Source: the human T2T-CHM13v2.0 reference genome, Homo sapiens. From it: a DNA stretch of 64,000 nt. Made by a program: the position numbers and the translations under genes. How positions within the stretch are numbered: position 1 is the stretch's first letter; every line of letters starts with the position of its first letter. The notes beneath the pieces were generated by a model. That model was not told the origin of the DNA and ran no database searches. It worked only from the letters and a program-made list of their open reading frames with translations. Positions 23,511-27,000 of this stretch are shown here, in pieces. The stretch lies in the NCBI RefSeq assembly GCF_009914755.1, contig NC_060944.1; one strand, given 5' to 3'.

Positions 23511-24931
23511 CTGAATTTTGGATTAAATTACATCTATCTCATTATAATACTATTCTATTAATATTATTTAATTGGTAATATATGTTGAAGTTTCTGGAGA
23601 TTATTGTTTTTCTATTAACATGATAAATTATAGTAAACTATTTCCTAATAGGCATCCATTCTTGCTTACTAACATGAACACTACTTGATTATGAAGTATG
23701 GTTTTAATGGGATTGCAACTTTTAAGTGTAAAGTACAGCTTTAGAATATTTGCAGTAATATTTATTAGTGGAATAGGCCTGTATTTTATTGTGTGTAGTG
23801 TATATGAGAGAGACGAAGGGAAAGGGATGGGAAGAGAACACATGTGTTCAGCTTTGGTCAAGTTTAGTATAAATACAATACTTATTAGTGTAAATACAAT
23901 ATTTATTCATAAATATATTTGGAAGTATTTTTATTTTCTGTACATGGAAACATTTAAAGTTATGGATTTCTCCTCTCCCTCTCACTGTCACTCTCGCTCT
24001 GTTTGTGTGTGCACGCACATGTGTGTGCATGCATCATTTAGCCCTGCTGACTGATACGCCTGGTTATTTATGATCAAAAGCCAGACATTGACCTAAGAGA
24101 AAAAGTCTTTAGATGGGATCTCCCTCCAAAGAAATTGTAGTTTTCTTCTCACTTAGAGGTAGATTCTCTTGGTCCAATCAGGCTGAAATGCCTTGAGGCT
24201 AGATTTCAGTCTTTGTGGCAGCTGCTGCATTTCTAGTTTGCCTTTTCAGCTAGGGATTAGCTTTTTAGGGGTCTCAATGCCTAGGGAGATTTCTAGGTCC
24301 TCTGTTCCTTGTTGAACTCCAATTTTGTCTATCCTTTTGCTGAGAGGTCTGCTTAACTTCCTTTTAGTCAGGTAGCTCCATTTTATGCTAAGCTTCTTAG
24401 TTGCTCACCTTCTGCAACTAAAGAATCAGAAAATGTTGTGAAGGAAAAACAAAACGAAATTGTTTTGTTTCTACTGGCCCTTTATCAAGCCCTGGCCACC
24501 ATGATAGTCATGAATTCCATTTTGTGTCTATGCAGGCCTATCAGATTTCTAACATCTCTGAGCTACCATTTTCTTCTTAGCTATCTGCTCAGCAAATGTA
24601 TCCAAATGAAAGGTTGTGGAGAATGTTGAAACCAATTCAATGTGTTTCACCTCTTTCTGGGAGCTTACACACTCAAGTTCTGGATGCTTTGATTGCTATC
24701 AGAAGCCCTTAAATAGCTACTTATTTTTAATTAATTTTATCCAGCTTTCATAATTGTTCTTGCCAGGTGGGATGGCCTGATATAAATTAACTTGTCATAG
24801 CTAGAATTAGAAGAGGAAAACTTTAAAGAGGATTGAGTTATCAGTACTTCCATGTCTTGATACATTTCTTCTTGAAAATGTTCATGCCTGCTGATTTGTC
24901 TGTTTTTTTTTTTTTTCTGACAAACTCATCT

Positions 24932-24937
24932 TTTATT
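24932..24937 (-). terminator. AATAAA polyadenylation signal used by the antisense transcript
   Basis: + strand TTTATT lies 15 nt from the poly(A) junction at 24917/24916. Confidence 0.75.
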
Positions 24938-24942
24938 TTTGA

Positions 24943-24970
24943 TGGGTGTGTGTGTGTTTTTTTTTAACAG
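24943..24970 (+). promoter_or_regulatory. CFTR-type (TG)m(T)n splice acceptor
   Basis: TG GG (TG)5 at 24947-24956, T9 at 24957-24965, then AACAG. Confidence 0.9.
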
Positions 24971-25153
24971 GGATTTGGGGAATTATTTGAGAAAGCAAAA
25001 CAAAACAATAAAAATAGAAAAACTTTTAATGGTGATGACAGCCTCTTCTTCAGTAATTTCTCACTTCTTGGTGCTCCTGTCCTGAAAGATATTAATTTCA
25101 AGATAGAAAGAGGACAGTTGTTGGCTGTTGCTGGATCCACTGGAGCAGGCAAT
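24971..25153 (+). pseudogene. CFTR: CFTR exon 10 (legacy exon 9) ectopic copy, CFTRP-type pseudogene fragment (NBD1 regulatory insertion + Walker A); which CFTRP paralogue cannot be determined here
   Basis: 183-bp exon after TG-GG-(TG)5-T9-AACAG and before GTAGT. Translates without stops to [61 protein letters not shown], matching CFTR residues 404-464 apart from 4 substitutions. No other CFTR exons seen in the window. Confidence 0.97.
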
Positions 25154-27000
25154 GTAGTCACTTTTATTCTTCACTATTAAGAACTTAATTTGGTATCCAT
25201 GTCTCTTTTTTCTTCTAGTTTGTAGTGCTGGAAGGTATTTTTGGAGAAATTCTTACATGAGCATTAGGAGAATGTATGGGTGTAGTGTCTTGTATAATAG
25301 AAATTATTTCACTGATAACTTACTCTAGTTTTTTATTTCCTCATATTATTTTCAGTGGCTTTTTCCTCCACATCTTTATATTTTGCACCACATTCAACAC
25401 TGTATCTTGCACATGGTGAGCATTCAATAACTTTATTGAATAAACAAATCATCCATTTTACCCAGTCTTAACCAGAACAGACATTTTTTCAGAGCTGGTC
25501 CAGGAAAATCATGACTTAAATTTTGCCTTAGTAACCACATAAGCAAAAGGTGCCCATTTTTTTTCTTTAAAAGTTTTTATTCATTATTTATTTATTATTA
25601 TTATACTTTAAGTTTTAGGGTACATGTGTACAATGTGCAGGTTAGTTACATATGTATACATGTGCCATGCCTGTGCGCTTTCCGTTGTGGGGTCGGGGGA
25701 GGAGGGAGGGATAGCATAGGGAGATATACCTAATGCTAGTTGACGAGTTGGTGTCTGTTTGTTGAGAGGAGAATGTTCAGAATTTTATATCTTCAACATG
25801 TTTTTCTGCGTTAATAAGATACTGAGATTTTATAACTCTTGTCATTTTGGTCACTTATATTTTCATATGGAAAAAATCATATAATCCAGGGTTTCCAATA
25901 TATTTCTGTAAAATTAAGAAAATGATCTTATCTAATTACTTGATCAATATCTGTGATTATATTTTCATTGCCTTCCAATTTGAATATTTGTTCTCTATTC
26001 CTTCTTAATCTGGATTGAGGTTCTGATTAATTATTTTAATGTTGCAAATTGTTTTCACTTTTTCCATAAAATGAGTTCTTGAGTTTATTTCTTTACTGCA
26101 TCATTCTATTTTCAAGTCATGAACTTCTGACTCAATTAAAAAAACCCTCACCGTTTCTATGAAATTGTTGTGTTCATATTTTATTTTTTATTTACTGTAT
26201 AGTTCAGTATAGAATATATAATATTATAAAATATGTAATAATAGGATAAAAAATAAGATACAAAAAGTAAGGGGTGTGAGTTTGGAAAATTATACTTGCT
26301 GATATGGTGAAATAACTCTGACCAAATTAACCTTTCAGCAATAAAAACAAAATTGGAAAACTGGATAAAATATACATGGTAACATGTTAGGTCAGCTTTG
26401 TCTGTCTTCAAACAACTATAAATATTGTTCTACCCTTGTTACTTATTTATTCTTTTCCATTTTGTTTTGCTCAATTTTTTTCTTATACCCATTTATTTGA
26501 GTAAATTTTGAAAATATCTATTCTTCATTTTTGCTGTTTCTAGTGTGGTATATATTTCTCAGATAAAAGGTATTTTCCCTTTTATCTTTCCCTAAACTCA
26601 CACTACATATATTGCATTTATCTTATATCTGCTTTAAAACCTATTTTTGTCTTTTTAGGTCACTTACATCAGAGGAGTTGTATTGGTGCGGGAAGGGGAA
26701 TTTGATTTAATGAAACAATGCATTAAAAATTTGTACTCACTTTGTGATTCAATGATAGTCAATGTGGCATGTAATTTTTTTCTGTCTTTTAATATTATAT
26801 TGTCTTTGTTGCTTTTCTCTAACATGAAATATATGTTACACAGGCACAGTGCTGGTATCTTTTCTATTATTATCTTCGAATAGGACTCATTATTGTCTGA
26901 GCTGTTTATTAAAATGGTAAAGGAAAAGATCAGTAAAGTAAATTATGCCAATAGGCAGTATCAATGTAGGTCTATTTTCCGTGAATATTTTCTCAGCAAC

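What the first reader, a model, noticed from the sequence alone, without database searches (positions are those of the whole stretch)
24897..25760. L1-mobilised antisense copy of a CFTR coding exon, with every TPRT hallmark readable
Seen, read on the minus strand: TSD, inverted L1 3'UTR (~70 nt), L1 3' end with its own A-rich tail, ~640 nt of antisense CFTR genomic sequence (intron-exon-intron), AATAAA, 15 nt, poly(A), TSD (TGTCTGTTT). The inversion junction drops ~5 nt of L1 (GGTGC) and shares TG microhomology with the TSD. Established: this is the architecture of L1 3' transduction combined with twin priming. Amplified CFTR exon 9 copies joined to L1 segments are already described (CFTRP loci), so the class is not new. 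Inference: because the RNA was antisense to CFTR it was not spliced, so a whole exon cassette with both splice sites moved intact, as in exon shuffling.
Basis: partly seen in the sequence, partly recalled or inferred. Interest (0 to 1): 0.85.

Follow-up and report, generated by a model that had tools for sequence, protein, structure and literature searches.

The report
L1-mobilised antisense CFTR exon copy (CFTRP2)
This is a roughly 850-base relic of one ancient LINE-1 retrotransposition that carried a backwards, unspliced copy of CFTR exon 9 into a chromosome-15-derived duplicated segment, which later spread to six sites near centromeres; it is a real and very clean example, but it is already in the literature.

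Summary
Window 24897-25760 reads, on the minus strand:
- a 9-bp TSD;
- 72 nt of inverted L1;
- 2 filler nt;
- 80 nt of L1 3' end with an A-rich tail;
- about 640 nt of antisense CFTR (intron 9, exon 9, intron 8) as one colinear block (624/652 identities);
- AATAAA, then 15 nt, then poly(A);
- the TSD again.

The two L1 pieces are adjacent in normal L1s, minus 5 nt (GGTGC).

CFTR homology stops sharply at both ends. Four paralogous loci (chr15, chr14, chr7, chr12) are empty sites with a single TGTCTGTTT. Six loci (three on chr20, plus chr9, chr14 and chr22) carry the identical insertion, and they separate from the empty ones in a flank tree with bootstrap 100. This points to one insertion, later copied by pericentromeric segmental duplication.

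One step is not shown. Present-day CFTR has no L1 within about 10 kb of the block on either side. Classical cis 3' transduction therefore needs a progenitor L1 that has since been lost. Trans mobilisation, by template switch or by nested insertion into an L1 tail, remains a live rival, and the title of Ejima & Yang 2003 points that way.

I found no evidence that the exon was ever captured by a gene. This is an already known case and of low interest.

The parts
24897..24905 (.). Target-site duplication TGTCTGTTT, the copy next to the poly(A) end of the element
   Evidence: Present once in the 4 empty paralogues and twice in the 6 filled ones.
24906..24916 (-). Terminal poly(A) tail of the retrotransposed RNA (T11 on the + strand)
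   Evidence: Not present in CFTR, which reads ...GAAAATATCTGAC at this point. Its length varies among the six copies, and one copy has it as (GTTT)n.
24917..25556 (-). Unspliced antisense copy of CFTR intron 8 end, exon 9 (legacy numbering) and intron 9 start. Up to 5 further T (to 25561) are shared with both CFTR and the L1 tail.
   Evidence: single colinear HSP, 624/652 identities to G000:C7:118863929-118864579; 22 differences in 639 aligned sites.
24932..24937 (-). AATAAA polyadenylation signal on the CFTR-antisense strand, 15 nt before the poly(A)
   Evidence: The same hexamer is present in CFTR itself (L007 1517). Two further antisense AATAAA lie inside the source block (L007 1922 and 2022) and must have been read through.
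24943..24970 (+). Copy of the CFTR intron 8 (TG)n-T9 tract and the AACAG 3' splice site
24971..25153 (+). Copy of CFTR exon 9 (183 nt). The frame is open in this copy, with 4 amino-acid changes plus 1 silent change. The last base is G>T, followed by a retained GT.
   Evidence: RefSeq CFTRP2 spans 24968-25166 (hub annotation).
25557..25599 (-). The L1 piece's own A-rich tail. On the minus strand it reads (TAA)n(ATAA)n..AATAAAAA, then CTTTTAAAG, then A8.
   Evidence: The same composite tail is in all six copies. Not present in CFTR.
25600..25679 (-). Last 80 nt of an L1 3' UTR in the same orientation as the antisense CFTR RNA
   Evidence: 94-100% identity to 13 dispersed L1 3' ends.
25680..25681 (.). 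Two unassigned nucleotides (TT) at the internal inversion junction
   Evidence: Present in all six copies.
25682..25753 (+). Inverted 72-nt L1 piece. In intact L1 it lies immediately 5' of the 80-nt piece apart from 5 nt (GGTGC). Its last 2 nt (TG) are also the first 2 nt of the TSD.
   Evidence: alignment; normal L1 loci match the two pieces on opposite strands with a 5-nt gap.
25752..25760 (.). Target-site duplication TGTCTGTTT, the copy at the 5' (inverted) end of the element

Best explanation
Shown: one L1-machinery (TPRT) insertion placed a composite cDNA into a pericentromeric copy of a 15q-derived duplicon. The cDNA consisted of the 3' terminal ~150 nt of an L1 with its own A-rich tail, followed by ~640 nt of unspliced RNA antisense to CFTR intron 9, exon 9 and intron 8, and it ended in poly(A) 15 nt after an antisense AATAAA in intron 8.

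The steps I infer for the insertion itself are as follows. The + strand was nicked at GTTT/G. First-strand cDNA was primed on the poly(A). The second nick, 9 nt away, gave a primer (...ACA-3') that annealed by 2 nt inside the L1 RNA and copied 72 nt. This is twin priming, and it explains the inversion, the 5-nt loss and the 5' truncation. Segmental duplication then carried the filled site to six loci.

Inferred and not shown: the most likely origin of the L1-CFTR join is classical cis 3' transduction. In that model a retro-competent L1 sat antisense in CFTR intron 9, inserted at CCATTTTT/G. Its transcript ran past its own weak poly(A) signals and past two antisense AATAAA before ending at the third. 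That progenitor allele was never fixed, or was later lost, so CFTR lacks it today. Because the RNA was antisense, the exon's splice sites were not used, and the exon moved together with both flanking intron ends.

Confidence differs by part: about 0.95 for the single TPRT event plus duplication, and about 0.55 for the cis route. The confidence field gives the figure for the whole statement, cis route included.
For: TPRT and a single event:
- 9-bp TSD, poly(A), and AATAAA followed by 15 nt.
- Four empty paralogues with one TSD copy and six filled ones, out of the 10 loci that match both flanks. Every candidate was scored: 11 of 11 and 10 of 10. Junctions are shown.
- Identical junctions, filler and tail in all six copies.
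- The flank tree over 4631 columns splits empty from filled with bootstrap 100.
- The two BLAST blocks of the window against chr15 overlap there by exactly the 9 nt.

RNA intermediate antisense to CFTR:
- The homology is one colinear genomic block with introns retained. It ends exactly where the poly(A) begins.

Twin priming:
- The two L1 pieces are contiguous in intact L1s minus GGTGC.
- The inverted piece ends at the TSD with TG shared.

Cis route:
- The architecture L1 end, own A-tail, unique DNA, poly(A) signal, poly(A), all inside one TSD pair, is that of 3' transduction (established knowledge: Moran 1999; Goodier 2000; Pickeral 2000, all recalled).
- The CFTR side of the join is CCATTTTT/G on the sense strand, an L1-endonuclease-like site where an antisense L1 would be expected to have integrated.
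- An L1 promoter and cis preference explain why an otherwise obscure antisense intronic RNA was copied at all (inference).

Timing:
- CFTR-to-copy distance is 2.9-3.9% (18-24 differences in 627-639 sites).
- This is of the same order as the divergences among filled flanks (maximum 3.4%) and between filled and empty flanks (3.25-4.6%).
Against: - No L1 3' end lies anywhere in C7:118854000-118874582. One search found only 22-38-nt A/T-rich matches about 9.3 kb away, and the positive control worked. The progenitor is therefore hypothetical.
- The A-run between CTTTTAAAG and the CFTR block is only 8-9 nt in all six copies. Five of these could be templated by CFTR itself. A young progenitor would then have had a terminal A-run of only 3-4, which is unusually short. 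The terminal tail of the same event is also short (a T-run of 10-17 on the + strand including the TSD's TTT; one of the six copies has it converted to (GTTT)n), so this counts only moderately.
- No sibling L1 with the same tail was found. The 22-nt tail motif with up to 2 mismatches gave 76 hits against 95 for the reversed control. None of 12 non-CFTRP hits examined lies beside an L1 end.
- The one paper I recall as dissecting this case is titled 'Trans mobilization of genomic DNA...' (Ejima & Yang 2003). I saw only reference listings for it. Its text was not available.
- The first-strand nick site GTTT/G is only a partial match to the TTTT/A consensus.
Confidence: 0.55

Rival explanations
1. 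Trans mobilisation with template switching. An independently transcribed, polyadenylated antisense CFTR RNA was used by an L1 RNP as the TPRT template. After about 640 nt, the reverse transcriptase jumped onto the poly(A) tail of an L1 mRNA; the nascent cDNA end ...CCATTTTT would have paired with that tail. It then copied the L1 3' end, and twin priming completed the insertion.
For: - There is no L1 at the source locus.
- The join sits at an A5 run of the antisense CFTR sequence, which gives 5 nt of microhomology with any poly(A).
- The L1 part ends ...AATAAA, then 11 nt (AACTTTTAAAG), then A-run. This looks like a cleaved and polyadenylated L1 mRNA 3' end.
- The short A-run (8-9) fits a jump onto the start of a tail.
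- The title of Ejima & Yang 2003 fits (reference listings only). Chimeric retrogenes made by L1 RT template switching are documented (Buzdin and colleagues, recalled).
Against: - It needs an antisense promoter in CFTR intron 9, for which there is no evidence here.
- Trans-mobilised RNAs are normally abundant spliced mRNAs or small RNAs, not unspliced antisense intronic RNA (established knowledge).
- Such chimeras are far rarer than 3' transductions (recalled).
- Landing within a few nt of the start of a long poly(A) tail is a minority outcome.
Confidence: 0.22
2. Two nested events. First, a short twin-primed L1 3' fragment inserted and created the TGTCTGTTT TSD. Soon afterwards, a trans-mobilised retrocopy of the antisense CFTR RNA inserted into that L1's poly(A) tail. 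A tail is a favoured T-rich endonuclease target and forces the same orientation. The second event's own A-only TSD would be invisible.
For: - A-runs flank the CFTR block on both sides (8-9 and 11).
- The orientation is as this model predicts.
- The 5-nt A microhomology at the 5' join is typical of a truncated retrocopy junction (inference).
- The model explains the short internal A-run without strain.
Against: - No L1-only intermediate exists among the 10 paralogous loci of this genome: 6 carry both parts and 4 carry neither.
- It needs two rare events at one site within the branch between the empty/filled split and the first duplication of the filled copy (branch lengths 0.0035 + 0.0053 substitutions per site).
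- It needs the same unexplained antisense RNA and trans mobilisation as the template-switch model.
Confidence: 0.12
3. DNA-level origin: an ordinary segmental duplication or a repair patch copied from the CFTR locus, with an L1 that merely happens to be adjacent.
For: The surrounding region is segmentally duplicated. The window is colinear with chr15:44.867-44.908 Mb over at least 44 kb, and there are nine other paralogous loci.
Against: - CFTR homology ends exactly at a poly(A) 15 nt after an antisense AATAAA.
- The unit is bounded by a 9-bp TSD that is single in the four empty paralogues.
- The flanks derive from chr15, not chr7.
Confidence: 0.02

Closest known systems
Amplified CFTR exon 9 loci / CFTRP pseudogenes (Rozmahel et al. 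1997, Genomics 45:554; RefSeq CFTRP2)
   Same: This is one of those loci. RefSeq annotates CFTRP2 at window 24968-25166. It holds exon 9 with flanking intron sequence joined to L1 sequence, in multiple pericentromeric copies. PMC5121184 (passages read) refers to CFTR exon-10 (legacy exon 9) pseudogenes on chromosomes 9 and 20.
   Different: Nothing differs in kind. I saw only the reference listing for the 1997 paper, so I cannot say how much of this it already contains.
[quoted passage not shown]
   Same: From memory, this paper analyses this very CFTR exon 9 retrotransposition and its L1 association. In PMC12533184 it is cited immediately after Rozmahel 1997 (refs 68 and 69).
   Different: Its title favours a trans mechanism. 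My sequence-only weighing puts cis transduction from a lost progenitor slightly ahead. The text was not held, so its evidence, such as any primate comparisons, could not be weighed.
L1 3' transduction (Moran, DeBerardinis & Kazazian 1999; Goodier 2000; Pickeral 2000; recalled)
   Same: The architecture is L1 3' end with its own A-tail, unique downstream DNA, a downstream poly(A) signal and poly(A), all inside one TSD pair.
   Different: There is no progenitor L1 at the source locus in this assembly. The transduced DNA contains a complete coding exon in antisense.
Twin priming L1 inversions (Ostertag & Kazazian 2001, Genome Res; recalled)
   Same: The 5' piece is inverted. The two pieces are contiguous in L1 apart from a 5-nt loss. 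There is 2-nt microhomology between the TSD end and the L1 at the priming point.
   Different: Only that the element also carries non-L1 sequence at its 3' end.
Template-switch chimeric retrogenes (U6-L1 and similar; Buzdin et al. 2002-2003; recalled)
   Same: Two RNA-derived parts lie in the same orientation inside one TSD pair, with a 3' poly(A).
   Different: In the classical chimeras the 5' partner is usually a small nuclear RNA and the 3' partner is L1 or an mRNA. Here the 5' partner is an L1 3' end with A-tail, and the 3' partner is unspliced antisense intronic RNA.

Membership tests
L1 target-primed reverse transcription (TPRT) insertion | Target-site duplication flanking the insert, with a single copy at the empty site | tested here: met
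   9-bp TGTCTGTTT on both sides in 6 of 6 filled loci and once in 4 of 4 empty loci.
L1 target-primed reverse transcription (TPRT) insertion | Untemplated poly(A) at the 3' end, preceded by a polyadenylation signal | tested here: met
   A11 (minus strand) at 24906-24916, absent from CFTR. AATAAA lies 15 nt upstream.
L1 target-primed reverse transcription (TPRT) insertion | First-strand nick at a TTTT/A-like endonuclease site | tested here: inconclusive
   The inferred nick is ...TGTCTGTTT/GTTGAG on the + strand. It has three T then G, which is a degenerate match only.
Twin-priming inversion | 5' segment inverted; the two segments adjacent in the L1 sequence with a small deletion or duplication; microhomology at the internal priming point | tested here: met
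   5-nt loss (GGTGC) against 5 intact L1s aligned. In one search, normal L1 loci match the two pieces on opposite strands a few nt apart (5 nt at C1:38533457-564/570-639). TG is shared with the TSD.
L1 3' transduction (cis) | L1 3' end with own A-tail, then unique non-L1 DNA from one locus, then a second poly(A), all within one TSD pair | tested here: met
L1 3' transduction (cis) | A progenitor L1 immediately upstream of the transduced DNA at the source locus | tested here: not met
   No L1 3' end in C7:118854000-118874582 of this assembly. A lost polymorphic progenitor cannot be excluded. I therefore say it has the architecture of a 3' transduction and do not file it as a proven one.
Template-switch chimeric retrogene | Parts derived from two separate RNAs joined during reverse transcription | not testable with these tools
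   The L1 part cannot be traced to a locus: the tail-motif search showed no enrichment (76 against 95 control) and no sibling was found. No primate outgroup genomes were available.
Processed pseudogene | Introns removed; sense-strand mRNA copy | tested here: not met
   Both intron ends are retained colinearly, and the poly(A) is on the strand antisense to CFTR.
CFTRP / amplified CFTR exon 9 loci | CFTR exon 9 with flanking intron sequence, joined to L1, in multiple pericentromeric copies | tested here: met
   Six copies, at C20:25.92, 30.58 and 31.27 Mb, C9:48.43, C14:8.68 and C22:11.48 Mb. RefSeq label CFTRP2 (hub annotation).
Exon shuffling (functional exon capture) | The moved exon is spliced into a host transcript or kept under selection | tested here: not met
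   No gene is annotated around it (hub annotation). Three of 6 copies have frame-breaking indels and one has an in-frame 3-bp deletion. This copy has 4 non-synonymous changes against 1 synonymous. Expression was not testable.

The most novel reading that the evidence does not exclude
The join between the L1 tail and antisense CFTR was made by reverse-transcriptase template switching, or by nested trans mobilisation, of an independently transcribed antisense CFTR intronic RNA. The locus would then be a natural, datable example of L1 machinery moving a complete exon cassette in trans, with no L1 ever having resided in the donor gene. Even so, this reading appears to be the one already published in 2003.
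Probability: 0.33. Interest if true: 0.3.

Novelty: already known. Interest (0 to 1): 0.15.

Why it matters
It is a textbook-quality natural example showing that L1 machinery can move a whole exon with both splice sites to a new chromosome. Pericentromeric duplication then multiplied it.

The practical consequence is known. These copies confound CFTR exon 9/10 genotyping; passages in PMC5121184 mention the chr9 and chr20 pseudogenes.

The open scientific point is narrow: did the exon travel in cis from a lost L1, or in trans? The 6-filled/4-empty census in a complete assembly gives a clean framework for settling that with primate genomes.

Tried and rejected
1. Sibling or progenitor L1 with the same composite tail.
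- An 81-nt tail query found the CFTRP copies (4 of the 7 matches) and three weak L1 tails at 77-81%.
- The 22-nt motif with up to 2 mismatches gave 76 hits against 95 for the reversed control.
- None of 12 non-CFTRP hits examined sits at an L1 end.
- No lead came of this.

2. Crude L1 screen of CFTR introns using 13 L1-bearing loci with their flanks included. It gave only scattered matches of about 100-430 nt on both strands, which I could not interpret because the library flanks contain other repeats. I replaced it with the direct test.

3. Left-flank paralogue mapping with a 16-kb query. It was swamped by a young dispersed repeat; only 12 of 45,872 candidates were scored. I replaced it with the direct chr15 comparison.

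4. Literature.
- Eight searches were run.
- They returned reference listings for Rozmahel 1997 and Ejima & Yang 2003, but no text describing the mechanism.
- Direct look-ups of four papers were not held.
- The CFTRP3 mention in bioRxiv 10.1101/2025.04.07.646890 concerns reporter read mapping and is not relevant.

6. Tandem-repeat scan of the window at score 200 or above: 0 rows.

7. Considered and rejected: a dead, already inverted L1 fragment in CFTR copied as part of a longer RNA. The new copy's 5' end would then have to coincide by chance with the boundary of the inverted piece at the TSD, and CFTR has no such fragment.
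Full report
**What is there**

I read both strands of window 24700-25960 and re-indexed every feature by script. On the minus strand the unit reads 5' to 3':
- TSD AAACAGACA (25760-25752);
- a 72-nt L1 piece in inverted orientation (25753-25682, its first two nt shared with the TSD);
- two unassigned nt (25681-25680);
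- the last 80 nt of an L1 3' UTR (25679-25600);
- that L1's own A-rich tail, (TAA)n(ATAA)n..AATAAAAA, CTTTTAAAG, A8 (25599-25557);
- about 640 nt antisense to CFTR (25556-24917);
- within that block, AATAAA (24937-24932) followed by 15 nt;
- A11 (24916-24906);
- TSD AAACAGACA (24905-24897).

**CFTR homology**

A search of the window's own assembly with window 24850-25820 found CFTR at G000:C7:118863929-118864582. BLAST of window 24400-26300 against that locus gives a single HSP: window 24916-25561, 624/652 identities and 7 gap positions.

- On the left, CFTR continues ...ATTGAAAATATCTGAC where the window has the T-run.
- On the right, CFTR continues CCATTTTTGTTAACATTACAA..., which is ordinary intron, where the window has the L1 tail.

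The block contains the (TG)n-T9-AACAG acceptor, the 183-nt exon (24971-25153) and the donor GT. The exon frame is open in this copy with 4 amino-acid changes and 1 silent change, and the last exon base is G>T.

**L1 pieces**

I aligned both pieces to intact L1 3' ends taken from dispersed loci. The inverted piece ends ...GACGAGTTGGTG and the direct piece starts AGCGCAC.... Intact elements have GGTGC between them. In one search, normal L1 loci match the two pieces on opposite strands a few nt apart; C1:38533457-564 and 38533570-639, for example, are 5 nt apart. This is the signature of twin priming (mechanism recalled from Ostertag & Kazazian 2001).

**Empty sites**

I searched the two flanks separately.
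- The left flank (597 nt) matched 10 loci full-length, plus one weak partial hit on C2. All 11 candidates were scored.
- The right flank (600 nt) matched the same 10 loci. All 10 candidates were scored.

At four loci the flanks are joined across one TGTCTGTTT: C15:44.887 Mb, C14:8.407 Mb, C7:57.95 Mb and C12:37.43 Mb. The C15 locus has one extra A.

At six loci the full unit is present with the 9-mer on both sides: C20:31.27 (this window), C20:30.58, C20:25.92, C9:48.43, C14:8.677 and C22:11.48. No locus has the L1 without the CFTR block.

A search with the CFTR block alone finds exactly these six plus CFTR (7 of 7 candidates scored).

**One event, then duplication**

The six copies share the same junctions, the 2-nt filler, the same composite L1 tail and the 5-nt L1 loss.

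A maximum-likelihood tree of about 4.2 kb of flanks (4631 alignment columns, all 10 loci, none left out) separates the four empty from the six filled loci with bootstrap 100.

The window is colinear with chr15:44.867-44.908 Mb over at least 44 kb. It is interrupted only by insertions in the window, and the two BLAST blocks on either side of the unit overlap on chr15 by exactly 9 nt.

The chr15 locus is the only one of the ten that is not pericentromeric or on an acrocentric short arm. I judge this from coordinates, so it is an inference. It is empty, so gain of the insert is the parsimonious reading, not precise loss.

Distances fit this order of events:
- filled against filled flanks, 0.44-3.42%;
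- filled against empty flanks, 3.25-4.62%;
- CFTR block against CFTR, 2.9-3.9% (18-24 differences in 627-639 sites), of which 8 are shared by all six copies.

At commonly used primate substitution rates this suggests roughly 15-25 Myr. That is an inference and depends on the rate assumed.

**How the L1 and CFTR parts came together**

This is the only unsettled step. CFTR in this assembly has no L1 3' end from 9.9 kb before the block to 10 kb after it. One search found only 22-38-nt A/T-rich matches about 9.3 kb away, and a normal L1 locus used as positive control matched both pieces. Three routes fit the structure.

(a) Cis 3' transduction from an antisense L1 that once sat at CCATTTTT/G in intron 9 and was later lost.
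- For: the architecture fits. The join lies at an endonuclease-like site. An L1 promoter and cis preference explain why this obscure antisense intronic RNA was copied. 3' transductions are common, and hot L1s are often unfixed polymorphisms (the last two points rest on recalled general knowledge).
- Against: the progenitor is hypothetical. The internal A-run is only 8-9 nt in all six copies, and 5 of those could come from CFTR.

(b) Template switching from an independent antisense CFTR RNA onto the poly(A) tail of an L1 mRNA.
- For: the 5-nt A microhomology fits. The L1 part looks like a cleaved mRNA end (AATAAA, then 11 nt, then A-run). The title of Ejima & Yang 2003 points this way.
- Against: it needs an unsupported antisense promoter and a rare kind of chimera.

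(c) Nested insertion of a trans-mobilised antisense CFTR retrocopy into the tail of a just-inserted L1 fragment.
- For: it explains the short A-run.
- Against: it needs two rare events at one site, and no intermediate is seen among the 10 loci.

I put these at about 0.55, 0.22 and 0.12. A DNA-level origin is effectively excluded.

**Exon shuffling**

The inference that antisense RNA escapes splicing, so that the exon travels with both splice sites, is reasonable and consistent with the retained intron ends. There is no sign that the exon was ever used.
- No gene is annotated around it (hub annotation).
- Three of the six copies carry frame-breaking indels, and one carries an in-frame 3-bp deletion.
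- This copy's substitutions are 4 non-synonymous to 1 synonymous.

**Known or new**

RefSeq already labels this locus CFTRP2. The amplified CFTR exon 9 copies were described by Rozmahel et al. 1997. From memory, their L1-mediated origin was dissected by Ejima & Yang 2003.

I read passages of PMC5121184 that mention chr9 and chr20 CFTR pseudogenes interfering with variant calling. The two key papers were not held (for Ejima & Yang; Rozmahel 1997 never appeared as a held paper in any search).

I therefore cannot say which details are already in print: the twin-priming reading, the empty paralogues, or the 15q origin of the target. I rate the finding as already known, correct in observation, and of low interest.

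Noticed in passing
window 1115-45281 (at least): The window is a pericentromeric paralogue of a euchromatic chr15 segment (G000:C15:44.867-44.908 Mb). It is colinear over at least 44 kb at about 91-97% identity per BLAST block, and it extended beyond the 40 kb of chr15 that I fetched. The gaps in colinearity are insertions in the window at about 6475-8675, 20017-21385, 24906-25751, 29779-30142 and 35677-36322, plus a chr15-side extra of about 1.6 kb between window 32430 and 32768.
   Followed up: partly
window 20260-21400: A roughly 1.14-kb repeat that is 97-98% identical to copies on many chromosomes (12 scored of 45,872 candidates). It is absent from the chr15 paralogue, so it is a young dispersed-repeat insertion into this duplicon. 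The family was not identified.
   Followed up: no
window 29779-30142: A 364-bp insertion present only in this copy and the chr9 copy; all other paralogues skip it. It contains a 43-nt stretch matching the same L1 3' region as the inverted piece. It agrees with the flank tree, which groups this copy with the chr9 copy.
   Followed up: partly
L024 (G000:C20:25.92 Mb copy), poly(A) end of the unit: In this paralogue the terminal poly(A)/T-run has become a (GTTT)n microsatellite (TGTCTGTTTGTTTGTTTGTTTGTTTTTTT). This is an example of tail-derived microsatellite birth.
   Followed up: no
exon copies in L022-L028 and window 25101-25109: The codon corresponding to CFTR Ala455 (GCG) differs among the copies: GCT in this copy, chr9 and chr22; GCA in chr20:25.92; GTG in chr20:30.58; unchanged GCG in chr14:8.677. 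PMC5121184 notes that the A455E variant occurs in a chr20 pseudogene and can cause miscalls. GAG is not present in any copy of this assembly.
   Followed up: partly
L050 about 9307-9347 (G000:C7:118873889-118873929): The only matches of the L1-tail query within 10 kb of the CFTR block are 22-38-nt A/T-rich stretches. These are low-complexity sequence and not an L1 end.
   Followed up: yes
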